Positions 5,833 through 50,461 of a stretch of 64,000 nucleotides of DNA are shown here, in pieces. Origin of the DNA: a virus; the IMG/VR virus record IMGVR_UViG_3300034062_004313, positions 64,001-128,000 of that record; one strand, given 5' to 3'. The notes under the pieces are model-generated. The model saw only the letters and a program-made list of their open reading frames with translations. It was not told the DNA's origin and made no database searches. Position 1 is the first letter of the stretch, and every line of letters starts with the position of its first letter. The position numbers and the translations under genes were made by a program.

Positions 5833-5904
5833 CTATTTCTTTTTTAAAGCATTTTTAATTTGCTCTAAAGTATAGCATCTTATACCATTAATCCAGAAAT
5901 ACAT
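5833..5904 (-). CDS. 23-aa small ORF (MYFWINGIRCYTLEQIKNALKKK)
   Basis: translated by hand; A-rich upstream region. Confidence 0.45.
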   Translation of the reverse strand: MYFWINGIRCYTLEQIKNALKKK

Positions 5905-6252
5905 ATGTTTTATTTTATTGTACCCAAACGGAAGTCATATTTGGCTCAATATCACAAGCAAGCTTTCTGAAATATTCAAGATTAAACTTACCATTAGGAT
6001 AAGTGTTCTTTGCAGTTTGTTGCACTTGCACTTTTCGTAGAAGGGAATGCTTATTATTAGCATTGCCATAGATAAATAGTGTTACCATAACATTTGTTTT
6101 ATTGATGAAAAATTATTTAAATAACCAAATAAAAGGAATATGACGCAAATTATACACACTAAAAGAATCAGATTTTCTAGCTTTCCAAATATATCCTATA
6201 ATATCTATAACTGTTAAAAGGATAATAATTAAACCAATTGATATGTTCATAA

Positions 6253-6936: not shown

Positions 6937-7305
6937 TTAAAGATTTTGCTCAATCCAATTCTCTCTTACTGTATAATGACAATCGGGTTTACTTTGTCCA
7001 TGTATCCATGCCTGTGTCATAAGATTATGTACTTCTTTTTTAGTATACATTTTATCAGAAGATTTATTCAATTCTTCAACAATATGTTCCTTAGCTTTAT
7101 TAAGATAATATGCTCTTTCATGATATTCAAATATACCATCATCCTTTGGATAAGCAGCATAAACAGTATTACCAAAACATTCTGCTCTAAAGTAACCATG
7201 TCTAAGTCTTAAATAACCAACTTCCATATCATTAAGAAATACATCGTATTGTTCAGGACAGGCTCCACATGTTTGAACTAGTTCTAATTCATTTGTTGTT
7301 ATCAT
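6937..7305 (-). CDS. hypothetical phage protein
   Basis: TCGACPEQYD...VGYLRLRHG motif; C-terminal module shared with 7315..8022. Confidence 0.75.
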   Translation of the reverse strand: MITTNELELVQTCGACPEQYDVFLNDMEVGYLRLRHGYFRAECFGNTVYAAYPKDDGIFEYHERAYYLNKAKEHIVEELNKSSDKMYTKKEVHNLMTQAWIHGQSKPDCHYTVRENWIEQNL

Positions 7306-8520: not shown

Positions 8521-8775
8521 ATTAATTAATTAAATGAGGACCATCTGTTATAGTTCTGGTTCCTCCTTCTGATATCATACTTATAGCCTCCCTTAAACTT
8601 TGGGCTATAACTGTACAAGTGATTTGTTCACCATTTGTACTAATAACTTGCGCTGTGTATTTCATAAAATAGATTAAAAAGATAGAAGGTGCTCACTCAT
8701 TGAGCTTTCCCTTCCACCAAATTATTTAATTATTCCAATGTGATATTTACAACAAAAATATAAAAAGATTTATCA

Positions 8776-8994
8776 TTAGTAATCATTTGCAGACCAAGCA
8801 TAATCAGACCATTCGTCTCCGCTTGTTCCTTGTGGTTTTAATGAAGGAGATTCGATGTTTGTTTTTCTTTTCTTAACTTGTACTTTATACTTACTTGCTT
8901 CCTTGCTATGACAAATCATAAATTTACCATTATTCTTATCAGCAAAATTTCTTGCTTTTTGTTCATTATGAAATCTGATTGTTACTGTTCCCAT
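8776..8994 (-). CDS. hypothetical protein
   Basis: ORF from ATG (MGTVTIRF). Confidence 0.55.
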   Translation of the reverse strand: MGTVTIRFHNEQKARNFADKNNGKFMICHSKEASKYKVQVKKRKTNIESPSLKPQGTSGDEWSDYAWSANDY

Positions 8995-39987: not shown

Positions 39988-41133
39988 ATGGCTTGTAGTC
40001 CTTATAATCCTTGTCACACACCAACTTGTGACACATGTAATACAGTAAATCCTTGTTATGACAATTGTGGTTGTTTAAATCCAACTACATTTGATTGTAT
40101 AACAAATTTCAAAAAAGCATATAACAATATCCCTTTAGAAATAAATGCTACAGGGCAAGATATGCTTGATAATCTTGATGAAACAGTAGCTGAAATAGAA
40201 AGTAATCTATATAAAGTAAAGGTGGATGATAGTGATACTTGTCCTGATACACTCTTAGATAAGATTACAGCAGGTAGCAATATTACAGTATCTGTAGCAG
40301 GAAGTGGATGTAATAGAAAACTTACTATAACAGCAGGGAATGGTATAACAACTGCTCCTGATATATATGCTAAAGTTTCATCTAATGACACTACATCTGA
40401 TTATCTTGGTAATAAATTTGTAGATGGTACATATGTTAAGAAATCTGTAAATAGTCCCGGTGGAAATGAAACAATTGATTTTGACATTACAATAGCTGAT
40501 TTAATCTCTACTGATAGTGGAAACCAATTAGGACAAGGAGTAGATGGTAAATTAAAAACTTTGTTCTCTGCACCTGATGGTTCTGAAACTAAAATTAACC
40601 CTGTTGCAAATTCTGGAATTACCCTAACTGGTACAGGTACTAATGGTGACCCTTATCTTATAGGAACTAATGGAGCATTATTTGCTGTTCAACCATATAC
40701 AGATGGTGTATGGAGAACATTAACCTTTAACAATGGTAGCAATGCTAATGTGACACTTAATTCTCAATCTGTTAAATATCGTATGAGATACGATGGTTCT
40801 GTAGAGTTTAAAGGAAGCTTAAATTATAGTGTAACATTCAATGTAGCAAGTACTAATAAGATAGCTATAACAGCAGCTAACATCACTACAGGAGGCTCAA
40901 CAAACCTTCCTTCAACAGCCTTTGATAGGGTTGCTAATCTAAGACATTATATGACGTTCAGTAGCCCTAATACAATAAGTGCTACACCAAAATTAACAGG
41001 TTATAATGTAAACATATTAGCTGCTGCTTTAAATAGTCCAGCACCAATTCAAATAGAATTTATGAATGACACTGCTGAAACTAAAAATATAGTAGTAACA
41101 ATGGATGGAGCAATATATCATCCTAATATTTAA
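39988..41133 (+). CDS. Cys-rich N-terminus fibre-like protein
   Basis: repeated KV...DT..D.L..K...G..I modules. Confidence 0.6.
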   Translation: MACSPYNPCHTPTCDTCNTVNPCYDNCGCLNPTTFDCITNFKKAYNNIPLEINATGQDMLDNLDETVAEIESNLYKVKVDDSDTCPDTLLDKITAGSNITVSVAGSGCNRKLTITAGNGITTAPDIYAKVSSNDTTSDYLGNKFVDGTYVKKSVNSPGGNETIDFDITIADLISTDSGNQLGQGVDGKLKTLFSAPDGSETKINPVANSGITLTGTGTNGDPYLIGTNGALFAVQPYTDGVWRTLTFNNGSNANVTLNSQSVKYRMRYDGSVEFKGSLNYSVTFNVASTNKIAITAANITTGGSTNLPSTAFDRVANLRHYMTFSSPNTISATPKLTGYNVNILAAALNSPAPIQIEFMNDTAETKNIVVTMDGAIYHPNI

Positions 41134-41183
41134 GAATTTAGAAAGAACGTAGCTTTTTTTGGTTTTTGCTGCATATGTTTTTC

Positions 41184-41206
41184 GGAGCCGTTCTCGGCTC
41201 TTTTTT
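41184..41206 (+). terminator. intrinsic terminator
   Basis: GAGCCG-TTCT-CGGCTC-T6. Confidence 0.8.
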
Positions 41207-41241
41207 CTTTTTATTAACATTTTAAATTGTAATTTTGTATT

Positions 41242-41496
41242 ATGATAATAACAGATAACATATTCTATTTAGATAATGGAGTAGAAAGACAAATAAATGT
41301 ATTTAACGAAAGTGACCCACACTATAGATGTTTTGAATCAGATGGACAGAAACAAATAATCTTTGGAAGAAGTTCATTTGTAAAAACTGAAAATGGAGAA
41401 GTAGATTTCTTCTCTTTAAGCAAAGAAGAAAAAGATAAATTCTGTAATAACACTAATTTTATAAAAACTTATAAAAAATATGATATACATAGGTAA
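41242..41496 (+). CDS. hypothetical protein
   Basis: 84-aa ORF 4 nt after TAATTTTG. Confidence 0.6.
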   Translation: MIITDNIFYLDNGVERQINVFNESDPHYRCFESDGQKQIIFGRSSFVKTENGEVDFFSLSKEEKDKFCNNTNFIKTYKKYDIHR

Positions 41497-41543
41497 AGAA
41501 TTAAGATGTTGGAAACACGTTAACAATGAATTAACACAACATA

Positions 41544-41575
41544 TTTGATTATATAAAATTATTACACTATATTAC
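41544..41575 (+). promoter_or_regulatory. probable promoter of tRNA operon 1
   Basis: TTTG-N20-TATATTAC (degenerate -7 element). Confidence 0.5.
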
Positions 41576-41584
41576 AATATAATT

Positions 41585-41665
41585 ATGAAATACGTAGTAA
41601 CACATACAACATGTCCACAGTGGTTTACACCGACAATATCGGGAGGGGCTTTGTATGTATACTAA
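41585..41665 (+). CDS. attenuator leader peptide 1 (MKYVVTHTTCPQWFTPTISGGALYVY)
   Basis: codons 6-17 are only Thr/His/Cys/Pro/Gln/Trp/Phe, the tRNAs of operon 1; 3' end pairs with the terminator arm. Confidence 0.88.
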   Translation: MKYVVTHTTCPQWFTPTISGGALYVY

Positions 41666-41687
41666 GAAATAGCTGTGTAGTAACATC

Positions 41688-41715
41688 AACCCTCTGAGAA
41701 ATCGGAGGGTTTTTT
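41688..41715 (+). terminator. attenuator terminator 1
   Basis: AACCCTCTGA-GAAA-TCGGAGGGTT plus T tract just before tRNA-Pro; 41678-97 can instead pair with 41639-64. Confidence 0.9.
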
Positions 41716-41719
41716 ATTT

Positions 41720-41813
41720 CTAGTTGTGGACGAGAGGTTTATGTCATTAGTCTTGGAAACTAATATCTGCACACAGATGGTGTGGGTCAAGGGTTCGACT
41801 CCCTTCAACTAGA
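41720..41813 (+). tRNA. tRNA-Pro(UGG) with long variable arm
   Basis: acceptor CTAGTTG/CAACTAG, A73; anticodon arm TTAGT-CTTGGAA-ACTAA; T loop TTCGACT. Confidence 0.8.
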
Positions 41814-41823
41814 CTTTTAATTT

Positions 41824-41896
41824 GCCTTACGAAGCTTTTATGGATGAAGTGTACTCTTGTAAAGTACGGAACTGGACTCGATTTCCAGCTAAGGCT
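41824..41896 (+). tRNA. tRNA-Thr(UGU)
   Basis: GCCTTA/TAAGGC acceptor; GTACT-CTTGTAA-AGTAC. Confidence 0.8.
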
Positions 41897-41902
41897 CAAA
41901 TT

Positions 41903-41975
41903 GGAGAAGAAGCTAACTTGGTAGAAGCGTTAGACTGAAAATCTAAAGGAGTTGGTCCGAAACCAACCTTCTCCG
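41903..41975 (+). tRNA. tRNA-Phe(GAA)
   Basis: GGAGAAG/CTTCTCC; TTAGA-CTGAAAA-TCTAA. Confidence 0.85.
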
Positions 41976-41977
41976 CT

Positions 41978-42052
41978 AAATACTTAATGAAACAATAAAG
42001 GAACAAAGGGGTCCGGGTAGAAATACGTTAGCGCCCATTGATTTAAGTATTT
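41978..42052 (+). ncRNA. unknown ~75-nt structured RNA within tRNA operon 1
   Basis: closing stem AAATACTTAA/TTAAGTATTT; GC-rich core with GTA-GAAA-TAC tetraloop. Confidence 0.45.
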
Positions 42053-42057
42053 TTTAT

Positions 42058-42129
42058 TCCTATGTGGTGTAATGTAACATCCACGCCTTTGAAGCGTTGA
42101 GATTGGTGGTTCAAGTCCATCTATAGGAA
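42058..42129 (+). tRNA. tRNA-Gln(UUG)
   Basis: TCCTATG/TATAGGA; ACGC-CTTTGAA-GCGT; T arm GGTGG-TTCAAGT-CCATC. Confidence 0.82.
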
Positions 42130-42131
42130 CT

Positions 42132-42206
42132 GTCTAAGTGTTCTGACTGGATTCAGATGAATGACTGTGAATTATTCAAAAAGGGTTCGAATCCCACTTA
42201 GACCCA
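42132..42206 (+). tRNA. tRNA-His(GUG)
   Basis: GTCTAAG/CTTAGAC; AATGA-CTGTGAA-TTATT; C discriminator; T-stem register imperfect. Confidence 0.78.
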
Positions 42207-42210
42207 ATAT

Positions 42211-42283
42211 ATAGGTACTCATGGCTGGCGTGATAAACAATCTCCAAAATTGTGATTTGTTGAATCGTTCTCAACTACCTATG
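42211..42283 (+). tRNA. tRNA-Trp(CCA), divergent
   Basis: ATAGGTA/TACCTAT, G73; ACAAT-CTCCAAA-ATTGT; atypical T loop ATCGTTC. Confidence 0.7.
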
Positions 42284-42339
42284 CTTTATAGGTCTATATA
42301 CCTATATTTATAGATTATAGGTTTTAAAGGCTATAATTT

Positions 42340-42415
42340 GTCCAGATACCTAATATTGATTTTGGGATAGGTCTGCAACACCTATTAAATATCGGTTTGA
42401 TTCCGATTCTGGACT
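42340..42415 (+). tRNA. tRNA-Cys(GCA)
   Basis: GTCCAGA/TCTGGAC, U73; TAGGT-CTGCAAC-ACCTA. Confidence 0.82.
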
Positions 42416-42429
42416 CTATTAAAAATAAA

Positions 42430-42461
42430 TTTTTTTATTTGAAAAAGATTTCGTATATTTG
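42430..42461 (+). promoter_or_regulatory. promoter of tRNA operon 2
   Basis: -7 element TATATTTG (42454-61) in the same TTTCGTATATTTGC context as the operon 3 promoter. Confidence 0.7.
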
Positions 42462-42486
42462 CTGTATAAATAATAAACATTCAACA

Positions 42487-42567
42487 ATGCAACTTATAAA
42501 TATGATAGTGGATAACGGTATTGGAGCAAACGAGAAGTTTGGCTTCAGGTATTCTATTGTCGTATAA
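42487..42567 (+). CDS. attenuator leader peptide 2 (MQLINMIVDNGIGANEKFGFRYSIVV)
   Basis: codons 4-17 are only Ile/Asn/Met/Val/Asp/Gly/Ala/Glu/Lys, the tRNAs of operon 2. Confidence 0.88.
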   Translation: MQLINMIVDNGIGANEKFGFRYSIVV

Positions 42568-42588
42568 TTACTTACTAACCCGATAAAG

Positions 42589-42619
42589 AATCCTGAGGCC
42601 CATCGCTTCGGGATTTTTT
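42589..42619 (+). terminator. attenuator terminator 2
   Basis: AATCCTGAGGC-CCATC-GCTTCGGGATT plus T tract; 42581-600 can instead pair with 42541-62. Confidence 0.9.
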
Positions 42620-42623
42620 GTTT

Positions 42624-42698
42624 AATCTCGTAGCAAAATGTGGCTTTGCTTCAGCCTTTTAAGCTGACTAAAAATGGGTTCGACTCCCATCGGGATTA
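42624..42698 (+). tRNA. tRNA-Lys(UUU)
   Basis: AATCTCG/CGGGATT; TCAGC-CTTTTAA-GCTGA. Confidence 0.88.
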
Positions 42699-42704
42699 CT
42701 AAAT

Positions 42705-42777
42705 GGCTCTTTAGCTCAGTGGTAGAGCTTCGTTTTTACATGACGAGAAAGCACTTGTCCGATTCAAGTAAGAGCTA
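42705..42777 (+). tRNA. tRNA-Val(UAC)
   Basis: GGCTCTT/AAGAGCT; canonical D arm; TCGTT-TTTACAT-GACGA. Confidence 0.82.
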
Positions 42778-42778
42778 C

Positions 42779-43108
42779 ATGAAATATATATTAGGAATAC
42801 TGTTCTTATTAATTATAGGAACAGCAACAAAAACAGGAATTGCAAGTTATTATCATAACAAGTTTCAAGGAAGGAAAACTGCTAGTGGTGAATTATATGA
42901 TAAACATAAATTAACAGCAGCTTCTAATCAATATAAACTTGGTGATAGTGTAAGAGTAACAAATACTAAGAATGGTAAAAGTGTAAATGTTACAGTAAAT
43001 GACCGTATGGCTAATAATGGAAGACTAATTGATTTAAGTAGAAGTGCTGCTGATAGTCTTGGTTTTATTAAGGATGGTTTAGTTGTAGTTAAAGTTAGTA
43101 TATTATAA
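42779..43108 (+). CDS. rlpA: RlpA-like double-psi beta-barrel protein (lytic transglycosylase family)
   Basis: hydrophobic N-terminus; GIASYY...GRKTASGE.YD...LTAA...VRVTN..NGKSV.V.VNDR...R.IDLS..AA..LG; start moved to ATG 42779 because the longer ORF overlaps tRNAs. Confidence 0.85.
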   Translation: MKYILGILFLLIIGTATKTGIASYYHNKFQGRKTASGELYDKHKLTAASNQYKLGDSVRVTNTKNGKSVNVTVNDRMANNGRLIDLSRSAADSLGFIKDGLVVVKVSIL

Positions 43109-43113
43109 ATATC

Positions 43114-43187
43114 TGTTTTGTAGCTCAGTGGCCTAGAGCGTGAAGCTGTTAACTTCAGGGTCGTGGGTTCGAATCCCATCAGGACAG
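43114..43187 (+). tRNA. tRNA-Asn(GUU)
   Basis: TGTTTTG/CAGGACA, G73; TGAAG-CTGTTAA-CTTCA. Confidence 0.92.
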
Positions 43188-43192
43188 CATAT

Positions 43193-43277
43193 TGTGGGAT
43201 GGTGTAATTGGTAACACGCAAGGCTCATAACCTTGAGACAGAAAATGCTAGCAAGGGTTCGAATCCCTTTCCCGCAA
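43193..43277 (+). tRNA. tRNA-Met(CAU) with extended variable region
   Basis: TGTGGGA/TCCCGCA; CAAGG-CTCATAA-CCTTG. Confidence 0.82.
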
Positions 43278-43282
43278 CACAA

Positions 43283-43355
43283 GCAGTATAGGCAGATTGG
43301 CTTATGCACCTCACTTCCAATGAGGACATGGTGGGTTCGATTCCTACATGCTGCA
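43283..43355 (+). tRNA. tRNA-Gly(UCC)
   Basis: GCAGTAT/ATGCTGC; CCTCA-CTTCCAA-TGAGG. Confidence 0.88.
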
Positions 43356-43402
43356 CAAAAATTATATTATGAAAAATTCTTTAAAAGAAGGTGAAGAGAT
43401 AT

Positions 43403-43475
43403 ACTCTCATCTTCTAGTTGGTCAGGATAACACACTTTCAATGTGTTGACACGGGTTCAAGCCCCGTTGGGAGTG
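43403..43475 (+). tRNA. tRNA-Glu(UUC)
   Basis: ACTCTCA/TGGGAGT; ACACA-CTTTCAA-TGTGT. Confidence 0.88.
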
Positions 43476-43485
43476 CTTTAAAAAT

Positions 43486-43559
43486 GGTAGATGGGTCTGC
43501 TGGATGAAGATGTCGGTCTGTCGAACCGAAGATGATGGGTTTGAATCCCATATCTACCG
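43486..43559 (+). tRNA. tRNA-Asp(GUC)
   Basis: GGTAGAT/ATCTACC, G73; TCGGT-CTGTCGA-ACCGA. Confidence 0.85.
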
Positions 43560-43564
43560 CATTA

Positions 43565-43639
43565 GGACTTGTAGCCAAGTTGGTAAAGGCCCTTGACTCA
43601 TAATCAAGAGATGCAATGGTTCGAGACCATTCAAGTCCA
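43565..43639 (+). tRNA. tRNA with CAU anticodon, probably Ile2 (lysidine); Met not excluded
   Basis: GGACTTG/CAAGTCC Ile-like acceptor; CTTGA-CTCATAA-TCAAG; leader 2 has two ATA codons. Confidence 0.75.
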
Positions 43640-43644
43640 CATAT

Positions 43645-43716
43645 AGGAATATAGTAGAAGGGTTATCACAATTGACTGATACTCAATTAATATAGGTTCG
43701 AATCCTATTGTTCCTA
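43645..43716 (+). tRNA. tRNA-Ile(GAU)
   Basis: AGGAATA/TGTTCCT; ATTGA-CTGATAC-TCAAT. Confidence 0.85.
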
Positions 43717-43721
43717 CATTT

Positions 43722-43794
43722 GGGGATAAAGCTCTAGCGGATGAGCATCTGCCTTGCACGTAGAAGGTTACGATTTCGAGTGTCGTTATCTCCA
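43722..43794 (+). tRNA. tRNA-Ala(UGC)
   Basis: GGGGATA/TATCTCC with G3:U70; TCTGC-CTTGCAC-GTAGA. Confidence 0.88.
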
Positions 43795-43818
43795 CATAGG
43801 GGTTCGGAAAATAATTAG

Positions 43819-43854
43819 CTACATCTCTTTATTAATAAGGGTTGTAGCTTTTTT
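43819..43854 (+). terminator. terminator ending tRNA operon 2
   Basis: AGCTACA.CTCTT...AAGGG.TGTAGCT plus T tract. Confidence 0.75.
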
Positions 43855-43930
43855 ATTGTCTCAAATATTGTAATAATTTGCGACATAATTTATTTTTTGT
43901 CAGGTTATAACCTTTCTTTATCTTTGTTTT

Positions 43931-44098
43931 ATGAATTGGCATATACTACCTGTAAATGATATAGAATATCATGAAGAATCTACCACTTGTAAGTGTGAAC
44001 CACAAGTAGAATTTATAGAAGGAGATATGCTAATTATACAAAACTCTTTTGATGGTAGAGAAGGAGTTGAATGGGTAAATGAAATTTTAAATAAATAA
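43931..44098 (+). CDS. 55-aa hypothetical protein (MNWHILPVNDIEYHEESTTCKCEPQ...SFDGRE...)
   Basis: translated by hand; H..H..CxC pattern; TATCTTTG element 4 nt upstream. Confidence 0.65.
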   Translation: MNWHILPVNDIEYHEESTTCKCEPQVEFIEGDMLIIQNSFDGREGVEWVNEILNK

Positions 44099-44130
44099 TT
44101 TGGAAAATTCAAAATAATTTCGTATATTTG
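44099..44130 (+). promoter_or_regulatory. promoter of tRNA operon 3
   Basis: TTTG-N20-TATATTTG, full Bacteroidota consensus. Confidence 0.8.
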
Positions 44131-44134
44131 CTTT

Positions 44135-44203
44135 ATGAAAACATTATCACTATATAGTTCCTCAAGTTATCTCTTATTAAGAGACAGGGATTGTATTGTG
44201 TAA
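44135..44203 (+). CDS. attenuator leader peptide 3 (MKTLSLYSSSSYLLLRDRDCIV)
   Basis: codons 4-15 are only Leu/Ser/Tyr, the tRNAs of operon 3. Confidence 0.88.
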   Translation: MKTLSLYSSSSYLLLRDRDCIV

Positions 44204-44231
44204 ATAGCTATAAGCTTTTAGCTCCCCTAAC

Positions 44232-44263
44232 AATCCCTTGTCTTTCCAGATGAGGGATTTTTT
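44232..44263 (+). terminator. attenuator terminator 3
   Basis: AATCCCTTGTCT-TTCC-AGATGAGGGATT plus T tract; 44230-43 can instead pair with 44182-94. Confidence 0.9.
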
Positions 44264-44266
44264 ATT

Positions 44267-44339
44267 GGCTCTATGACGTAATCGGCAACCGTCTTGGCTT
44301 TAGACCCCAAGTTTTCCAGTTCGAATCTGGATAGAGCTA
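44267..44339 (+). tRNA. tRNA-Leu(UAG) lacking a long variable arm
   Basis: GGCTCTA/TAGAGCT, A73; TTGG(C)-TTTAGAC-(C)CCAA. Confidence 0.75.
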
Positions 44340-44394
44340 CAAATTAGCAGCCCTCTATGGATAATTCTATTGACGAATAGAATATGGGCAAAAT

Positions 44395-44477
44395 ATTCCT
44401 GTGGTGAAATGGTGAGACACGGCAGACTTAAAATCTGCTACGGAGAAACGTTGCTGGTTCGAATCCAGTCAGGAATA
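44395..44477 (+). tRNA. tRNA-Leu(UAA)
   Basis: ATTCCTG/CAGGAAT; GCAGA-CTTAAAA-TCTGC; variable arm present. Confidence 0.9.
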
Positions 44478-44480
44478 CTT

Positions 44481-44565
44481 AGCAGAATGTCAGAGTGGTT
44501 TATTGTGATAGTCTTGAAAACTATTGGGTGTAAAAGCTCCTTGGGTTCGAATCCCAATTTTGCTG
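44481..44565 (+). tRNA. tRNA-Ser(UGA)
   Basis: AGCAGAA/TTTTGCT, G73; ATAGT-CTTGAAA-ACTAT; variable arm. Confidence 0.88.
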
Positions 44566-44569
44566 CAAT

Positions 44570-44658
44570 AGAAGATTGTGTGAGTGGCTTAAACAACCAG
44601 TTTGCTAAACTGGCGAGGGATTAAAACACCTCCATTGGTTCAAATCCAATATCTTCTG
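44570..44658 (+). tRNA. tRNA-Ser(GCU)
   Basis: AGAAGAT/ATCTTCT, G73; CCAGT-TTGCTAA-ACTGG; variable arm. Confidence 0.9.
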
Positions 44659-44663
44659 CATAT

Positions 44664-44756
44664 TGTGTTGTAACGGCAGTAGACTGTAAATCTACTCTGC
44701 ATAACAAATTGTCGTACTGGTCTCGCAGTAAGAAGGTTCGAATCCTTTCAACACAA
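44664..44756 (+). tRNA. tRNA-Tyr(GUA) without a D arm, with enlarged variable region
   Basis: TGTGTTG/CAACACA, A73; GTAGA-CTGTAAA-TCTAC; canonical T arm; only 8 nt between acceptor and anticodon stems. Confidence 0.7.
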
Positions 44757-44782
44757 CATTAACTTATTATTAACTATAGACA

Positions 44783-44814
44783 TTTGACTATATAAAGTAA
44801 ATAGTCTATTTTTG
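44783..44814 (+). promoter_or_regulatory. Bacteroidota sigma promoter for a small RNA
   Basis: TTTG-N20-TATTTTTG with a GACTAT/ATAGTC inverted repeat. Confidence 0.7.
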
Positions 44815-44818
44815 TATT

Positions 44819-44956
44819 GTACAAATTCCCAACCGTCATAGGAGATTTGTATTTAATTAACAATAACTATATATTCGATTGATGTAACTTTGTTCTTAGG
44901 AACGCAACTTGACGGTTGGGACCCCTTGTACTTAATTGTATGAGGGGATTTTTTTT
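44819..44956 (+). ncRNA. candidate ~140-nt small RNA with its own promoter and terminator
   Basis: 12-bp stem TCCCAACCGTCA (44827-38) / TGACGGTTGGGA (44910-21); terminator CCCCTTGTAC...GTATGAGGGG-A-T8. Confidence 0.6.
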
Positions 44957-45054
44957 GCAGACATCCGAGGTTTTTCTTTCCTTCTTTTACGTCCTCCACA
45001 AAAATAAAAGAGTGTCATTAAGATAGTATAGTATATTACACTTGGTATATTATA

Positions 45055-45290
45055 TGATAGGATGTAGAAAAATCAGCAATGTCTAAGGTGACAACTGGAC
45101 CTGAACGAAATTATCAGCAAAAACTACATTCCTCCGTGAAAAATAAAATCATCTTATAGCTGATAATTATTTGTAGATGATTGGCAGGACATGGGAATCT
45201 TAGGTTGACAATATGTTTATAGGAGTATGTGTTAACTATAAATACATTATCCCAACAGGGGAAGACCTTGTTCAGGATAGACCCCCTTAT
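45055..45290 (+). ncRNA. candidate multi-stem structured RNA
   Basis: no credible ORF; stems 45109-18/45159-68, 45100-06/45270-76, 45147-54/45175-82, 45060-67/45124-32. Confidence 0.4.
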
Positions 45291-45316
45291 GTAAATTAAC
45301 AATAAAATGTAAAACT

Positions 45317-45622
45317 ATGAAAAACCACAAAATGACATCATATCAATTCATGATGTTAATGCAAGAATTACCAAATCCAATGTATTATGCTAGAAATGGA
45401 GCTAATGTAGGATTTAGAGTAAAAGTAGGATATTTAAAGAAGTCCATTGATAATACTCCTACAATATTAATAAATCCTAATTCTCAACCTATGAAGATGG
45501 CAGAAGTTGAACAGGTAGAATTTGAATTAGTTCCGAACAATACTATTTGGTATTGGCAACCTGTAGAACCAATTACTATAATAACATTAGATAAGAAAGA
45601 GTACATTAAAAATTGGGAATAA
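45317..45622 (+). CDS. hypothetical protein
   Basis: 101-aa ORF. Confidence 0.65.
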   Translation: MKNHKMTSYQFMMLMQELPNPMYYARNGANVGFRVKVGYLKKSIDNTPTILINPNSQPMKMAEVEQVEFELVPNNTIWYWQPVEPITIITLDKKEYIKNWE

Positions 45623-45930
45623 TGAATATAATAAAATGGTATAAAAGAGTATTTAGAATTCTTACTATAGAAGAATGTAAAGAATTAGGATTAGTACATT
45701 CTCATAATATATATGGTGATAGTATTAATCATTTAAATTGTAGAAGTATTTGGAAAGATGAAAAGGATAGAACATATAGGTGTGAAAGTTTAATACCTAC
45801 TATAGGAGTACTAGATTTATGGATTTTAAAAATGAAAAATCAAGATAAAGTACAACCAATAACTCAAGAAGAATATAATAAAATAAGAGATGAAGAATTT
45901 GAAAGGCTCAAGACTTTATATTCGCCTTAA
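45613..45930 (+). CDS. hypothetical protein
   Basis: NIYGD.INHLNCRSIW motif. Confidence 0.65.
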   Translation: MGIMNIIKWYKRVFRILTIEECKELGLVHSHNIYGDSINHLNCRSIWKDEKDRTYRCESLIPTIGVLDLWILKMKNQDKVQPITQEEYNKIRDEEFERLKTLYSP

Positions 45931-45967
45931 CAAATAATAGTGTAATTTTGGCTTCTAAATAAAAATC

Positions 45968-46288
45968 ATGAAAGTATTAACAGAAGGACATTATTATGAA
46001 CTAGAACATTTTGAAAAAGATGAATCGGGTAGTTCAGAAAGTTTACAATTTATCGAAAAGGTTCCAAAAGGTGAAGGGAAAGTACAAGATTTAGTAACAG
46101 TAAATAATGGAACTACAAATGAAGAAGTTCTTAAAGTTCTAATAAATAGAATGAACTATTTACAAGCAAAATTTCCATGTAGAGAAAATGCTATTGTAAT
46201 TACAAAACTTGAAGAAAGTCTAATGTGGTTAGAAAAAAGAACTGTTGATAGAATAGCTAGAAATGTAGAAGGTAAACAATTAAAATAA
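45968..46288 (+). CDS. Tad1-like anti-defence sponge protein
   Basis: NGTTNEEVL.VLI.R...LQ..FPCRENA..ITKLEE.LMWL..R..DR..RNVEG resembles the recalled Tad1 C-terminal signature. Confidence 0.7.
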   Translation: MKVLTEGHYYELEHFEKDESGSSESLQFIEKVPKGEGKVQDLVTVNNGTTNEEVLKVLINRMNYLQAKFPCRENAIVITKLEESLMWLEKRTVDRIARNVEGKQLK

Positions 46289-46296
46289 AATAAACT

Positions 46297-46512
46297 ATGA
46301 AAAAACAATTATTTACGTATGCTGTATTATTCCATCAGCATGAAGAGAAAGAGGGAAAATTGGAATACAAAGAAACACTTATTCTTGTAGAACCAAAAGT
46401 GATTTTAGCAAAGAATAGTAATGAAGTAGCATTCAAAGCTACAAGAGACGTACCAGAACAATATGCAGGATTTTCAGAAAATGTAGAAATTATAGTACGC
46501 CCTTTTAAATAG
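46297..46512 (+). CDS. small hypothetical protein ending IIVRPFK
   Basis: 71-aa ORF; possible frameshift extension. Confidence 0.7.
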   Translation: MKKQLFTYAVLFHQHEEKEGKLEYKETLILVEPKVILAKNSNEVAFKATRDVPEQYAGFSENVEIIVRPFK

Positions 46513-46711
46513 CTCCCCCTTAATGTGGGATAGTGGGAGCAAAGGAGTATGGGAACAATTAGTAGACCCACCTAAATATAAAAGTACTTTCCAAAATTAT
46601 ATGGGTACAACTACAAATTTAGTAGGACAAGCAATAAACACTTTGACAACAGGAACATCAATATCATATAACATGGCAGATGCAATGTCATTCACAAATT
46701 AAAATCAAATT

Positions 46712-46876
46712 ATGAAAACACTAACAAATCTATTTACAAGCAACCCATCTTACATGAAATGGGGTAATGAAAGAATTGCAAAAAGAACAGGGCTGAAACC
46801 AAAAACAGTAGAGAAATTCAAAAAGAATCCCTTGTATAAGATAATGAAAACCCAATATCTTAACGAGATTAATTAG
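46712..46876 (+). CDS. 54-aa basic HTH-like protein (MKTLTNLFTSNPSYMKWGNERIAKRTG...)
   Basis: translated by hand; resembles the N-terminus of 47019..48335 (NP..L..G..K..LA.RLG). Confidence 0.55.
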   Translation: MKTLTNLFTSNPSYMKWGNERIAKRTGLKPKTVEKFKKNPLYKIMKTQYLNEIN

Positions 46877-46926
46877 GAAATGTCGCAAAAAAGGCGTATA
46901 TTGTTATGATATGCGCTTTTTTATTT

Positions 46927-46998
46927 GGCTCCTTAGTTAAATGGATATAACCGCAGAATTCTAATCTGCATTTGGGAGTTCGATTCTCTCAGGGGCTA
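46927..46998 (+). tRNA. tRNA-Arg(UCU)
   Basis: GGCTCCT/AGGGGCT; GCAGA-ATTCTAA-TCTGC. Confidence 0.88.
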
Positions 46999-47018
46999 CG
47001 AAATCTTAAAAATAAATT

Positions 47019-48335
47019 ATGATTATAACACAAACAATGCAAAAGTTTATTGACAATCCGAAGATGTTAGAGAGTGGATATTGCTCAAAAGCAAAATTAG
47101 CTCAAAGACTTGGAACAACAATAGACGATATTACAGAATCAAGGTTTAAAGTGAAACAAATGATGTCTTCATTAGACCATGCTCAAGAGTTCTTTAAAGA
47201 ATTAAAATCAGAAATTGTTAATGAACATACTACAAGAGTAGATAATGAAAAGGGTACTATAACATCGGATGTAGAAACTACATTTGAACCCAAGAATGAT
47301 ATTGAATTAGCTGAATTACATAAGATTGATTTAACAAAATACAAAATAAGTACATATTGGTCTAAACTAAAGAGCAATGGTAAATTCACTTCATCTGTAT
47401 TAGCTACATTAAGAAATATTGATAAGGATATTCCTAAACAAAAAGAATCATTAATAGAAGAAATAGATGAATATTTTGGTAGTAAAAAAGCTATTGAAAA
47501 TTATAGATTCTTCACAAGAGAAATTGATAAGGATAGAAAAACTGCTAAAAATACAGATGGTCAACTATTAGAAATATCCATTCCTGATTTACACATTGGT
47601 AAAATGTCTCATAGAGAAGAAACAGGGGAAGATTATGATTTAAAAATTGCATCTGCAAGATATAAGAATGCTATAACTCAACTATTAAAAACAGCCAATT
47701 TAGATAATGTATCTGATATATTACTACCCATTGGTAATGACTTGTTCAATGTAGATAATCAGTTCTCAACTACTACAGGTGGTACACCACAGGATTGTGA
47801 TAGTAGGTTCCACAAGATGGTAGGAGCAGCAAAAGAACTCCTTATAAATACAATAACAGGGTTAAGTGCATTTGCAAGAGTACATGTTCTTATAGTACCA
47901 GGCAATCATGATGAAGTTACAACATTTATGTTAGGTGAAATATTAGAAGCATGGTTTCATAATGATAGTAACATAACTGTAAATAATACAGCAAAACTTA
48001 GAAAATACTTCCAATTTGGAAAGAATTCTTTCCTTTATACTCATGGAGACAAAGAAAAACATGGGGATTTAGGATTGATATTTGCTACAGAAGAACCTAG
48101 ACTTTGGGCTGATACTAAATACAGATTTGTAAAACTTGGTCATCTTCACAAGCAAAAGAAAATAGAATATATAACAACAGACACACTTCAAGGGTTCCAA
48201 ATAGAAATACTTCCATCACTAAGTTCTGCTGATAAGTGGCATTATGGAAAAGGTTTCTTAGGAGCAAAGCAAGCAAAAGCCTATCTCTATGATAAAGAAC
48301 TTGGGGAAATTGCACAGTATACACACACTGTTTAA
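47019..48335 (+). CDS. calcineurin-like metallophosphoesterase with N-terminal extension
   Basis: PDLH, GND, PGNHD, THGD, GHLH motifs. Confidence 0.85.
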   Translation: MIITQTMQKFIDNPKMLESGYCSKAKLAQRLGTTIDDITESRFKVKQMMSSLDHAQEFFKELKSEIVNEHTTRVDNEKGTITSDVETTFEPKNDIELAELHKIDLTKYKISTYWSKLKSNGKFTSSVLATLRNIDKDIPKQKESLIEEIDEYFGSKKAIENYRFFTREIDKDRKTAKNTDGQLLEISIPDLHIGKMSHREETGEDYDLKIASARYKNAITQLLKTANLDNVSDILLPIGNDLFNVDNQFSTTTGGTPQDCDSRFHKMVGAAKELLINTITGLSAFARVHVLIVPGNHDEVTTFMLGEILEAWFHNDSNITVNNTAKLRKYFQFGKNSFLYTHGDKEKHGDLGLIFATEEPRLWADTKYRFVKLGHLHKQKKIEYITTDTLQGFQIEILPSLSSADKWHYGKGFLGAKQAKAYLYDKELGEIAQYTHTV

Positions 48336-48942: not shown

Positions 48943-49613
48943 TTACTAAAAGACAAGCTATATTACAACTTCGAAAGAAGATACAAGAACAACATGCAGA
49001 TACAGGGTACACTAATCAGTTCCTGTATCTTTCTATTTTAGAACAAGCCAAATGGATTGTAAAGAGAGAGATACGTTCTGGAAGAGTATATAAAAATATG
49101 GACTTATTTAAACCTTTAAAATGTAAGAGAGTTGTAGAAAGTTCTATTATAGAGAATAGTTGCCCAATAAAAATACCATGTAACATTTGGAGAACAGATA
49201 AAAAACTTCCCGATACTTGGCAAGATGATTATGGACCAGTTATTAAATATGCAATGTCTGTAGATGACAGCACAAGATGGCATCTTATATCTAAGGAAGA
49301 ATGGATTAATAAACAGTCTTCTCCATATTTCAAACTTGACAAGACTAAGTACATGATATATTCTGATGGATACCTTTGGTTTCCAAGAGAAAATCCAAAA
49401 AGGATAAATATATATGGATATTGGATAGATGACCCCTTATTATATTCAGAATGTGGAGATAAACCACAATGTATTAAATATCTGGACACTCCCTTATATA
49501 TACCAGATTGGACGGAGGCAGAGATAATAAATAAAGCATTTGAGATACTTATAAAGGGTACAAAACAAATTCCTTTAGATGAAGACATAAATAAATCAGA
49601 AAATCGTAAATAA
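48939..49613 (+). CDS. putative tail ring protein
   Basis: synteny; DGYLW motif. Confidence 0.55.
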   Translation: MITKRQAILQLRKKIQEQHADTGYTNQFLYLSILEQAKWIVKREIRSGRVYKNMDLFKPLKCKRVVESSIIENSCPIKIPCNIWRTDKKLPDTWQDDYGPVIKYAMSVDDSTRWHLISKEEWINKQSSPYFKLDKTKYMIYSDGYLWFPRENPKRINIYGYWIDDPLLYSECGDKPQCIKYLDTPLYIPDWTEAEIINKAFEILIKGTKQIPLDEDINKSENRK

Positions 49614-50461
49614 TGAACAATAAAATTATAGATTATATACCATATTCTGAATTGATGTCTCTTGTAAAACAAGAGATTAAATCATATGATAGTCAAGGAT
49701 ATATAAATGATGGAGACCTTATTCCAACGGTGATGTATTGCAATGAAAAGCTTGGAATACATATACATGAAGTTAAACAGGCTATAATTGAAATAAAGAA
49801 CAATAAAGGAGATTTACCTAAAGATTTCCATAAAGTGTTTTACATGGCTGCTTTATCTATGACTAATACTACAGTAACAAATTGGACAAATCCTTGGGAC
49901 AATAGTAAAGACAGAACAGTAACCTATGATGCAGATTTTAAAAGAGGATGTATAGGATGTGAAGATAATGTTACAGTGATATATAAGAAATCAGGAGTTG
50001 ACATAACACAATCTTATTATAATTGGCAAGATTTAAAATTAAGCAATGGTCAATATGCTTATATAGGATGTCCAAATATTAATAGTAAGTCGAAGAATCA
50101 AGTGGATATTGATATAGAGAATGGAGAGATTACAACAGGATTTAGAACTGGAGAAATATATATGATGTATGTAGCAAATATGCTAAGTGAAGAAGGTGAG
50201 ATACTTATCCCTTTCCATCCACTTATAACTCCTTGGTATGTATGGAGTTGTGTAGACCAAGTTATTAAATCCATGATATTTGATACAGATGAAGATTTGA
50301 ATAAGTTAAAAATGCAAAGAGAATTAGCACAGGATGAAAAGGATAAATCATGGATAACATCTTATAATTTTGCAAATACAAAAGAGTTTATGGCTTGGCA
50401 ACAAGACCAAAAGAAGCAACAACTTTCTTGGTGGAAGAGATGGTTTAGAATTATTCAATAA
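49613..50461 (+). CDS. tail tubular / ring protein
   Basis: GDLP.DF...TGF.TG.IY..Y......EG...IP; directly upstream of the stabilisation protein. Confidence 0.65.
   Translation: MNNKIIDYIPYSELMSLVKQEIKSYDSQGYINDGDLIPTVMYCNEKLGIHIHEVKQAIIEIKNNKGDLPKDFHKVFYMAALSMTNTTVTNWTNPWDNSKDRTVTYDADFKRGCIGCEDNVTVIYKKSGVDITQSYYNWQDLKLSNGQYAYIGCPNINSKSKNQVDIDIENGEITTGFRTGEIYMMYVANMLSEEGEILIPFHPLITPWYVWSCVDQVIKSMIFDTDEDLNKLKMQRELAQDEKDKSWITSYNFANTKEFMAWQQDQKKQQLSWWKRWFRIIQ

What the first reader, a model, noticed from the sequence alone, without database searches (positions are those of the whole stretch)
41544..44756. Phage tRNA operons gated by codon-matched leader-peptide attenuators (tRNA supply on demand)
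Seen in sequence: three tRNA operons share one layout: promoter, 22-26 aa leader ORF, intrinsic terminator, then tRNAs starting 3-4 nt after the U tract. In each, the last 7-9 leader codons are complementary to the 5' arm of the terminator, forming a mutually exclusive antiterminator. The 12-14 consecutive codons just upstream encode only amino acids whose tRNAs are in that operon, and all of them appear: THTTCPQWFTPT vs Pro/Thr/Phe/Gln/His/Trp/Cys; INMIVDNGIGANEK vs Lys/Val/Asn/Met/Gly/Glu/Asp/Ile2/Ile/Ala; LSLYSSSSYLLL vs Leu/Leu/Ser/Ser/Tyr. The three sets do not overlap and cover 19 amino acids. Established: this is the logic of trp/his/ilv/pheST ribosome-mediated attenuation, where a stalled ribosome frees the antiterminator strand. 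Inference: the phage monitors host decoding capacity and transcribes a tRNA set only when any of its codons stalls, for example after tRNA cleavage by anticodon nucleases or toxins, or starvation. The new tRNAs would then switch their own operon off. I know of no described case of leader-peptide attenuation controlling tRNA genes, or of one leader sensing 7-10 tRNAs, but I could not search the literature.
Basis: partly seen in the sequence, partly recalled or inferred. Interest (0 to 1): 0.98.

Follow-up and report, generated by a model that had tools for sequence, protein, structure and literature searches.

The report
Leader-peptide attenuators gating phage tRNA genes
Each of three tRNA gene blocks in this 156-kb crAss-like phage sits behind a tiny translated "test" gene, written in the codons those tRNAs read and wired to a switchable transcription stop, so the phage probably makes a tRNA set only when ribosomes read its codons slowly; I found no paper describing such control of tRNA genes.

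Summary
Three short ORFs (26, 26 and 22 codons) each lie between a Bacteroidota-type promoter and an intrinsic terminator that ends 3-9 nt before the first tRNA of a block. Runs of 12, 14 and 12 codons use only, and all of, the amino acids of the tRNAs behind them. Each leader ranks first of 1018 short ORFs in the genome for its own set.

Folding with a ribosome mask gives the classic arrangement of protector, antiterminator and terminator.

Twelve related crAss-like genomes (neighbouring protein down to about 34% identical) keep the layout, giving 36 leaders in all. The cognate residues fill exactly the 11 codons where a stalled ribosome would free the antiterminator.

Leaders co-vary with tRNA content at the codon level. 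Eight of eleven leaders in front of a block with tRNA-Arg(ACG) carry Arg, always as CGY. All nine in front of tRNA-Arg(UCU) carry AGA. The clade holding this window moved tRNA-Arg(UCU) out of block 2 and lost that codon.

A cultured Cellulophaga phage shows the same design with a different amino-acid partition.

No expression data could be obtained, so translation and regulated read-through are inferred. Eight literature searches found no description. This scan has reported the same design before on other DNA (phiCbK-like, jumbo and crAss-like phages).

The parts
41544..41575 (+). Promoter 1: TTTG, 20 nt, TATATTAC (imperfect Bacteroidota -33/-7 type). The ATG follows 9 nt after the -7 box.
   Evidence: Sequence and relaxed motif scan.
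41585..41665 (+). Leader ORF 1 (26 codons). The sensing run is THTTCPQWFTPT (codons 6-17). The antiterminator strand (region 2) is at 41641-41648.
41688..41719 (+). Terminator 1: 10-bp stem with a GAAA loop (dG -15.2), then a T-rich tract.
41720..42416 (+). tRNA block 1: Pro(tgg), Thr(tgt), Phe(gaa), Gln(ttg), His(gtg), Trp(cca, degenerate T arm), Cys(gca).
42454..42461 (+). Promoter 2 -7 box TATATTTG, with a TTTT -33-like element 20 nt upstream. The 5' UTR is about 20-25 nt.
42487..42567 (+). Leader ORF 2 (26 codons). The sensing run is INMIVDNGIGANEK (codons 4-17), with ATA, ATT and ATG all present. Region 2 is at 42541-42556.
42587..42623 (+). Terminator 2 (12-13 bp stem, dG -16.6) plus U tract.
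42624..43795 (+). tRNA block 2: Lys(ttt), Val(tac), an RlpA/DPBB ORF (42779-43108), Asn(gtt), Met(cat), Gly(tcc), Glu(ttc), Asp(gtc), Met/Ile2(cat), Ile(gat), Ala(tgc).
43817..43858 (+). Hairpin plus U tract that closes block 2.
   Evidence: Read from the sequence.
44099..44130 (+). Promoter 3: TTTG, 20 nt, TATATTTG. The ATG follows 4 nt after the -7 box, so the mRNA is probably leaderless.
44135..44203 (+). Leader ORF 3 (22 codons). The sensing run is LSLYSSSSYLLL, using TTA, CTA, CTC, TCA, TCC, AGT and TAT. Region 2 is at 44181-44193.
44232..44265 (+). Terminator 3 (12-bp stem, dG -14.0) plus U tract.
44267..44752 (+). tRNA block 3: Leu(tag), Leu(taa), Ser(tga), Ser(gct) and an atypical Tyr(gta).
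44922..44956 (+). Hairpin plus U tract that closes block 3.
   Evidence: Read from the sequence.

Best explanation
These are three ribosome-mediated (leader-peptide) transcription attenuators, each controlling one block of phage tRNA genes.

Proposed mechanism:
1. Transcription starts at a Bacteroidota-type promoter directly in front of a short ORF. Leaders 1 and 3 are probably leaderless or nearly so.
2. A ribosome loads at once and reads about 11-14 codons that are cognate only to the tRNAs encoded behind the terminator.
3. If all of these codons are decoded quickly, the ribosome reaches the 3' part of the ORF and covers region 2. The terminator (3:4) then forms and transcription stops before the tRNAs.
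4. If the ribosome is not there at all, region 1 pairs with region 2 and the terminator also forms.
5. If the ribosome dwells on any codon of the run, or is slow over the run as a whole, it holds region 1 while region 2 stays free. Region 2 pairs with the 5' arm of the terminator and RNA polymerase reads into the tRNA block.
6. The new tRNAs speed decoding of the leader and shut the block off again. The loop is negative feedback on decoding capacity, per tRNA set.

Shown: the anatomy, its statistics, its conservation and its co-variation with tRNA content.
Inferred: translation of the leaders, regulated read-through, and the physiological trigger. Candidate triggers are a codon-usage mismatch between a 30% GC phage and its host, loss of host tRNAs during infection, or tRNA-targeting defences.
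For: Composition and position
- Each leader is the best of 1018 short ORFs in the genome for its own tRNA set and lies directly upstream of that set.
- tRNAs start 3-9 nt after the terminator, so every transcript that reaches them must pass it. -7 boxes (TAnnTTTG) occur just upstream of leaders 2 and 3, and a relaxed TATATTAC box upstream of leader 1. None with a -33 partner lies between a terminator and its tRNAs.

Folding
- The minimum-energy folds show a 1:2 hairpin plus the terminator.
- With a ribosome masked on codons 4-13 (leader 2) or 1-11 (leader 3), the probability of the terminator falls from about 0.95 to 0-0.47. It returns to 0.9 or more once the ribosome moves on.
- On transcripts cut at the terminator loop, the 5' arm is sequestered for stalls up to codon 15 (leader 1), 14-15 (leader 2) and 11 (leader 3), and freed beyond.

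Thirteen genomes, 36 leaders
- The fraction of residues belonging to the own block is 0.81-1.00 at codons -13 to -3 before region 2, and 0.14-0.61 elsewhere. [quoted passage not shown]
- Region 2 always starts at leader nt 44-63.
- Own-leader against own-terminator duplexes average -12.7, -17.5 and -13.0 kcal/mol, against -9.4, -10.7 and -8.6 across genomes.
- 0 of 20,000 permutations reach the observed sum. Mean z against shuffled leaders is -3.2 to -4.4.

Co-variation with tRNA content
- All 8 Arg codons in leader 1 are CGC or CGT, where block 1 holds tRNA-Arg(acg). The CGY share of Arg codons in these phages is 0.195, so 8 of 8 has p = 2e-6 if the cases were independent.
- All 9 Arg codons in leader 2 are AGA, where block 2 holds tRNA-Arg(tct).
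- In the clade window/L024/L025, tRNA-Arg(tct) sits outside block 2 and leader 2 has no Arg.
- In L028, L034 and L041 only tRNA-Cys remains. The leader has lost His, Trp and Phe and reads ...PCC(T/A)QC....

An independent lineage
- Cellulophaga phage phi17:2_18 has the leader MKIQRLHLQELEQPIISGGTGV in front of Pro, Glu, Gln, His, Leu(tag), Leu(taa) and Arg(acg).
- The Lys codons in its second leader led me to an unannotated tRNA-Lys(ttt) in that block.
Against: - No transcript, Term-seq or ribosome-profiling evidence exists here.
- Leader 1 of the window shows no switch at equilibrium, where the terminator stays at 0.91 or more. It switches only in the co-transcriptional model, and its antiterminator is weak.
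- Column-wise covariation counts on a MAFFT alignment of leader 2 were inconclusive. Only the covariation score of the terminator exceeded the shuffles (4 of 500). The antiterminator and the 1:2 helix did not.
- Co-variation has exceptions. L025, L037 and L039 carry tRNA-Arg(acg) but no Arg codon in leader 1.
- The gains and losses are few evolutionary events, so the counts are not independent.
- Some cognate codons sit at the edge of the sensing range (Glu and Lys in leader 2, the last Leu codons in leader 3). Stalls there would be sensed weakly.
- Most tRNAs are represented by only one or two codons, which classical models predict gives low sensitivity to mild limitation.
- tRNA-Arg(tct) also sits right behind a terminator but has no leader, so the terminator-then-tRNA arrangement alone does not imply attenuation.
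- Not all phage tRNA arrays have this design.
Confidence: 0.8

Rival explanations
1. The switch senses amino-acid starvation rather than tRNA supply. The leaders would report charged-tRNA levels, as in trp and his, and the phage would tune tRNA output to the nutritional state of the host.
For: The mechanism cannot tell a missing tRNA from an uncharged one. The architecture is identical to amino-acid attenuators.
Against: - The match is at isoacceptor and codon level, not amino-acid level. Arg is CGY in leader 1 with tRNA-Arg(acg) and AGA in leader 2 with tRNA-Arg(tct). Both Leu boxes, both Ser boxes, and ATA alongside ATT are represented.
- By inference, making more tRNA does not relieve an amino-acid shortage, so the regulated product fits tRNA supply better.
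Confidence: 0.08
2. The terminators are constitutive and leaky. The hairpins would simply set a low fixed tRNA level or end a mini-transcript, and the short ORFs would have another role or none.
For: - tRNA-Arg(tct) at 46927 sits behind a terminator without any leader.
- Leader 1 shows no equilibrium switch.
- There are no expression data.
Against: This does not explain several results:
- why the ORF residues match the downstream tRNA set only within the 11 codons ahead of region 2;
- why region 2 tracks each genome's own terminator arm;
- why Arg codon type follows tRNA content;
- why an unrelated partition of amino acids in phi17:2 has a matching leader.
Confidence: 0.06
3. The codon run binds tRNA anticodons directly, without a ribosome, like a many-specifier T-box.
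For: The regulatory run is complementary, by definition, to the anticodons of the tRNAs behind it.
Against: - No T-box or other Rfam family matches the region.
- The run is always in frame with a conserved ATG and stop.
- Synonymous codons vary while the amino-acid set is kept.
- The enriched zone ends three codons before region 2, which is the reach of a ribosome footprint.
- By established knowledge, isolated codon-anticodon triplets do not bind stably without a scaffold.
Confidence: 0.02

Closest known systems
Multivalent leader-peptide attenuators of enterobacterial amino-acid operons (thrL: Thr and Ile; ilvL of ilvGMEDA: Ile, Val and Leu), and hisL, trpL, leuL, pheL (from my own knowledge and PMC1183508)
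   Same: A short translated ORF with regulatory codons. A protector (1:2), an antiterminator (2:3) and a terminator (3:4). A race between ribosome and RNA polymerase. A control region made almost only of regulatory codons.
   Different: The regulated genes are tRNAs, not biosynthetic enzymes. One leader samples 3 to 9 amino acids, mostly with one to five codons each, and does so at isoacceptor level. The element is viral. The product feeds back directly on the decoding step that is being sensed.
The pheM leader of the pheST operon (attenuation of an aminoacyl-tRNA synthetase; from my own knowledge)
   Same: Leader-peptide attenuation applied to a component of the translation apparatus rather than to a biosynthetic pathway.
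   Different: It senses one amino acid (Phe). The product is a protein, not the tRNA itself.
Leaderless polycysteine short ORFs of mycobacteria (bioRxiv 10.1101/834739)
   Same: A leaderless sensory short ORF at the 5' end of an operon. Ribosome stalling on cognate codons remodels the downstream RNA structure. Several loci form a ribosome-directed regulon.
   Different: Those control translation by unmasking a ribosome-binding site for cysteine metabolism genes. Here an intrinsic terminator ahead of tRNA genes is controlled.
T-box riboswitches
   Same: Both sense the state of a specific tRNA and decide between terminator and antiterminator.
   Different: A T-box binds uncharged tRNA directly through a specifier codon and the T-box sequence, without translation, and controls synthetase or amino-acid genes. 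No T-box match was found here.
Phage tRNA arrays as counter-defence or codon compensation (PMC10264068, PMC11555353, PMC12409363)
   Same: Phage-encoded tRNAs replace host tRNAs that are limiting or are cleaved by defence nucleases. This gives a rationale for sensing decoding capacity.
   Different: Going by their titles and abstracts, those papers deal with what phage tRNAs do. None turned up in my searches for attenuator control of tRNA genes, and I did not read their full text.

Membership tests
Ribosome-mediated (leader-peptide) transcription attenuator | A short ORF in the 5' leader, enriched in regulatory codons cognate to what the operon supplies. | tested here: met
   Runs of 12, 14 and 12 codons use only own-block amino acids. 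Each leader is top of 1018 ORFs. Own-block residues make up 0.81-1.00 of the control region across 36 leaders.
Ribosome-mediated (leader-peptide) transcription attenuator | An intrinsic terminator between the leader ORF and the first structural gene. | tested here: met
   GC-rich hairpins of -14 to -16.6 kcal/mol plus a U tract, ending 3-9 nt before the first tRNA.
Ribosome-mediated (leader-peptide) transcription attenuator | An antiterminator that excludes the terminator, and whose upstream strand a ribosome covers at the end of the ORF. | tested here: met
   Ribosome-mask folding. Region 2 lies at leader nt 44-63 in all 36 leaders. Own against cross-genome duplexes: 0 of 20,000 permutations. 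Weak for leader 1 of the window. Column-wise counts were inconclusive.
Ribosome-mediated (leader-peptide) transcription attenuator | A protector or pause hairpin (1:2) that pairs the regulatory codons with region 2. | tested here: inconclusive
   It is present in the minimum-energy folds of all three window leaders. On the alignment of leader 2, 74% of cells pair, which is not above the shuffles.
Ribosome-mediated (leader-peptide) transcription attenuator | The leader is translated, and read-through rises when cognate codons are read slowly. | not testable with these tools
Indirect support comes from the conserved ATG, frame and stop, with synonymous variation inside the amino-acid set.
Ribosome-mediated (leader-peptide) transcription attenuator | The regulated genes are amino-acid biosynthesis or aminoacylation genes (all described members, to my knowledge). 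| tested here: not met
   The regulated genes are 7, 10 and 5 tRNAs plus one RlpA-like ORF. This is the point of novelty.
T-box riboswitch | Stem I with a specifier loop, and the conserved T-box antiterminator sequence. | tested here: not met
   An Rfam scan of 41000-47500 at E up to 1 gives only tRNA hits and chance matches.

The most novel reading that the evidence does not exclude
Phages of several unrelated lineages keep their tRNA genes under homeostatic leader-peptide attenuation. The lineages are crAss-like phages of Bacteroidota, Cellulophaga Lightbulbvirus and, according to earlier notes of this scan that I did not check, phiCbK-like and jumbo phages. Each tRNA block carries a codon 'barcode' read by the ribosome at isoacceptor level. 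The virus would thus measure in real time which decoding capacities of the infected cell are failing, through codon mismatch, host shut-off or tRNA-cleaving defences, and replace just those tRNAs. This would be a previously undescribed class of regulation of tRNA genes and a built-in sensor of attack on the tRNA pool.
Probability: 0.7. Interest if true: 0.92.

Novelty: new variant of a known kind. Interest (0 to 1): 0.88.

Why it matters
Why phages carry tRNA genes has been debated for decades. The proposals are codon compensation, replacement of a degraded host pool, and escape from anticodon nucleases.

A sensor in front of the tRNA genes would say what the phage itself monitors: the decoding speed of specific codons, isoacceptor by isoacceptor. 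It would also make the question testable. The leaders are ready-made reporters of tRNA shortage.

It would extend ribosome-mediated attenuation from metabolism to the translation machinery's own RNAs. It would also be, as far as I could find, the first transcriptional feedback control described for tRNA genes through a leader peptide.

A cultured example exists (Cellulophaga phage phi17:2 on Cellulophaga baltica), so experiments are feasible now.

For annotation, the leaders predict tRNA content. An unannotated tRNA-Lys was found that way. They also flag spurious CDS calls inside tRNA arrays.

Tried and rejected
- **A fourth attenuator in front of tRNA-Arg(tct).** The mini-ORF MSQKRRILL (46880-46909) overlaps the terminator arm, but L024 and L025 have no ATG there. 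I rejected it as chance.
- **Close relatives by single-protein scans of IMG/VR**. Nothing was found. Exonuclease relatives at about 35% identity had no tRNA arrays.
- **GenBank phages by DNA**. Only tRNA-sized matches came back.
- **Column-wise covariation of the terminator, antiterminator and 1:2 helices** on a MAFFT alignment. The result was inconclusive because the helices shift register between clades. I replaced it with an alignment-free duplex test.
- **Generality in other cultured Bacteroidota phages.** Flavobacterium phage immuto and the crAss001-like PhiCrAssBcn22 have tRNA arrays without such leaders. The third tRNA group of phi17:2 (Ser, Ser, Asn, Trp, Phe) has no recognisable leader.
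- **Ser(gga) in block 2 of L026 against TCT codons in its leader.** The same TCT codons occur in relatives that lack that tRNA and lie inside region 2, so they are not evidence.

Full report
**Context**

The window is bases 64001-128000 of a 155,874-bp IMG/VR virus record rated complete, with about 30% GC. It encodes a terminase, a portal and an exonuclease. One protein (49613-50461) has a sub-threshold match to CrAss_Ring_1. The syntenic relatives carry CrAss_Ring_1 and CrAss_Ring_2 genes. It is therefore a large crAss-like phage, and the promoters it uses are of the Bacteroidota type.

**Observation**

ARAGORN finds 19 tRNAs at default settings. All lie on the + strand between 41720 and 46999, and there are none elsewhere in the genome. 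Thr and His appear at a relaxed threshold. Trp appears only at a still lower threshold, and Tyr is called by no program, but both align with the tRNA-Trp and tRNA-Tyr of relatives.

Each leader holds a run of 12, 14 or 12 codons that uses only, and all of, the amino acids of the block behind it. Against the other two blocks the longest runs are 1-3 residues. Among 1018 short ORFs of the whole genome each leader ranks first for its own set, by a wide margin. Chance is excluded.

**Anatomy and predicted switch**

The minimum-energy folds show a hairpin that pairs the regulatory codons (region 1) with the 3' part of the ORF (region 2), followed by the terminator (regions 3 and 4).

I masked a ribosome footprint at each codon in turn:
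- Leaders 2 and 3 switch cleanly at equilibrium. The terminator probability is about 0.95 with no ribosome or with a ribosome past the run. It is 0-0.47 with the ribosome on codons 4-13 (leader 2) or 1-11 (leader 3).
- Leader 1 does not switch at equilibrium, because its GAAA-capped terminator is too stable.
- On transcripts that end at the terminator loop, which is the situation when the decision is taken, the 5' arm is sequestered for stalls up to codon 15 and freed beyond. The same holds for the other two leaders.

The run of cognate codons thus ends where a stalled ribosome would begin to cover region 2.

Promoter motifs (TTTG, 19-21 nt, TAnnTTTG, or near matches) lie directly upstream of each leader. 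None lies between a terminator and its tRNAs, where there are only 3-9 nt. For leaders 1 and 3, here and in most relatives, the ATG follows the -7 box by 4-9 nt. This suggests leaderless or nearly leaderless mRNAs.

**Relatives**

Single-protein scans of IMG/VR and a DNA search of GenBank phages found no close relatives. The protein encoded just upstream (39988-41133) has 110 homologues in the large protein collection.

From their contigs, and from an alignment-based scan of IMG/VR, I obtained 18 further syntenic loci with DNA and usable downstream flank. Twelve of them gave leaders that I could curate.

Every relative that has tRNA blocks has a leader and terminator in front of the same three blocks. 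In a few, homing-endonuclease genes have been inserted. With the window this makes 36 leaders in 13 genomes.

**Positional signature**

I counted codons from the first codon of region 2. Region 2 was located without reference to composition, as the best duplex partner of the terminator's 5' arm.

The fraction of residues that belong to the own block is 0.81-1.00 from -13 to -3. It is 0.60 at -2, 0.40 at -1, and 0.14-0.61 everywhere else. This is the window from which a stall frees region 2. It matches the theoretical requirement for a control region made almost only of regulatory codons (PMC1183508).

**Antiterminator co-evolution**

Region 2 sequences differ between genomes: GGCTTCAGG, GGTCTAGAGG, GGCTCTGGG, TGCCTCAGGGTTCC, TGGCTCCGGG and TGCCTTGGGGC in leader 2. 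Each matches its own terminator arm.
- Own duplexes average -12.7, -17.5 and -13.0 kcal/mol, against -9.4, -10.7 and -8.6 across genomes.
- No permutation out of 20,000 reaches the observed sum for any of the three leader families.
- Own duplexes lie 3.2-4.4 sd below dinucleotide shuffles on average.
- Column-wise counts on a MAFFT alignment were inconclusive because of register shifts.

**Co-variation with tRNA content**

- Block 1 holds tRNA-Arg(acg) in eleven distinct genomes. In eight of them leader 1 has one Arg codon, always CGC or CGT, although CGY is only 19.5% of Arg codons in these phages. L025, L037 and L039 are exceptions with no Arg codon.
- Block 2 holds tRNA-Arg(tct) in nine genomes, and leader 2 has AGA in all nine.
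- In the window, L024 and L025, tRNA-Arg(tct) lies 2-3 kb downstream behind other genes, and leader 2 has no Arg codon.
- In L028, L034 and L041 only tRNA-Cys is left. The homologous leader has lost His, Trp and Phe and reads ...YEPCC(T/A)QC....

These are few events on the tree, so the counts overstate independence. They are nevertheless at codon level and in the predicted direction.

**An independent lineage**

Cellulophaga phage phi17:2_18 (KT962247) is cultured and belongs to a different genus. It has an unannotated leader, MKIQRLHLQELEQPIISGGTGV, 4 nt after a -7 box. A terminator follows, and then Pro(tgg), Glu, Gln, His, Leu(tag), Leu(taa) and Arg(acg). The leader codons include CGT, TTA and CTA.

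Its second leader (...TKTGITVIDKTKGARAY...) contains Lys codons although no tRNA-Lys was annotated in that block. ARAGORN then found tRNA-Lys(ttt) there. A different partition of amino acids with matching leaders is the strongest comparative argument.

The design is not universal. Flavobacterium phage immuto and the crAss001-like PhiCrAssBcn22 lack it.

**Codon choice**

Within the sensing windows, T-ending codons of four-fold boxes are almost absent: CCT 0 of 21, CTT 0 of 39, TCT 0 of 41 and GCT 1 of 10. Rare G- or C-ending codons are favoured (GAG, GTG, CCC, CTC, TCC). The mean synonymous frequency is 0.408 against 0.457 expected, with 0 of 5000 simulations as low. Shared ancestry inflates these counts. 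The trend fits the theoretical preference for rarely used regulatory codons (PMC1183508).

**Interpretation**

The best explanation is ribosome-mediated attenuation of tRNA transcription with negative feedback through the tRNAs themselves.

The codon-level match argues for sensing tRNA supply rather than amino acids, though the mechanism cannot distinguish a missing tRNA from an uncharged one.

The trigger is open. The phage carries a near-complete decoding set, mostly with U34 or G34 anticodons suited to its AT-rich codons. Tad1/Acb2-like and other small ORFs lie next to the blocks. tRNA-cleaving defences countered by phage tRNAs are documented (PMC10264068, PMC11555353, PMC12409363). None of this was tested here.

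**Literature and earlier notes**

Eight full-text searches found no paper on leader-peptide or attenuator control of tRNA genes, in phages or elsewhere.

Earlier AI notes of this scan report the same design in phiCbK-like Caulobacter phages, several jumbo phages and other crAss-like phages. I used them as leads only. My own checks were on this clade and on phi17:2.

**Verdict**

This is a new variant of a known mechanism, with high interest. Experimental proof of translation and of regulated read-through is still missing.

Noticed in passing
window 46880-46999: tRNA-Arg(tct) starts 3 nt after a hairpin plus U tract that ends a conserved 54-codon ORF (46712-46876). It has no leader ORF, and L024 and L025 are the same. 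How this tRNA is transcribed is unexplained; read-through of that terminator is one possibility. A mini-ORF MSQKRRILL overlapping the hairpin is not conserved.
   Followed up: partly
window 42779-43108: An RlpA-like DPBB (lytic transglycosylase fold) ORF with a signal-like N-terminus sits inside tRNA block 2 with no room for its own promoter. DPBB ORFs occupy the same place in L024, L025 and L029. It would be expressed only on read-through of attenuator 2.
   Followed up: partly
window 45968-46288: A 106-aa ORF has a sub-threshold Pfam match to the Acb2/Tad1 hairpin domain (24.2 bits, cut-off 27) and matches phrog_2428 (unknown function). It is a possible cyclic-nucleotide sponge next to the tRNA blocks.
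   Followed up: partly
window 41720-41814, 43193-43278, 42207-42284, 44664-44752: Several tRNAs are unusual. tRNA-Pro (95 nt) and one tRNA-Met (86 nt) carry long variable arms. tRNA-Trp has a degenerate T arm. The Tyr(gta) candidate lacks a normal D arm and has a variable region of about 35 nt.
   Followed up: partly
L025 16020-17044: Where relatives have tRNA-Leu(taa), L025 has a 288-codon ORF and a group I intron-like match (Rfam Intron_gpI, 41.5 bits, gathering score 50, E 8e-9). Leader 3 of L025 still contains TTA and TTG. This may be an intron-split tRNA-Leu(UAA).
   Followed up: partly
L024 11596-12273 and 13340-13858; L030, L031, L036 upstream of first tRNAs: HNH-type homing endonuclease genes are inserted inside the tRNA blocks, in some genomes between the attenuator terminator and the first tRNA.
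   Followed up: no
L027 17105; L035 15367: A tRNA with anticodon CTA (an amber suppressor, labelled Pyl by ARAGORN) lies between blocks 2 and 3 in two relatives. This suggests TAG recoding in those lineages. The window has none.
   Followed up: no
L045 (KT962247) 7098-7170, 8698-8781, 5838-5906: In Cellulophaga phage phi17:2_18, ARAGORN finds tRNA-Lys(ttt) and tRNA-Ser(tga), which the record does not annotate. The annotated CDS Phi17218_078 overlaps the tRNA-Ser. The leader ORF before tRNA-Pro is not annotated. The Ser, Ser, Asn, Trp, Phe group has no recognisable leader.
   Followed up: partly
window 44966-45316: About 350 nt after the block 3 terminator hold no plausible ORF on the + strand and no Rfam match. 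A long-range complement (44828-44838 with 44907-44917) flanks the terminator region.
   Followed up: no
L046 (OQ221557) 2990-3030: In crAss001-like PhiCrAssBcn22 the tRNA array starts behind a -7 box followed by a three-codon ORF, ATG ATT AGA AGA TAA. It lies just before tRNA-Gln and tRNA-Arg(tct), without a terminator.
   Followed up: no
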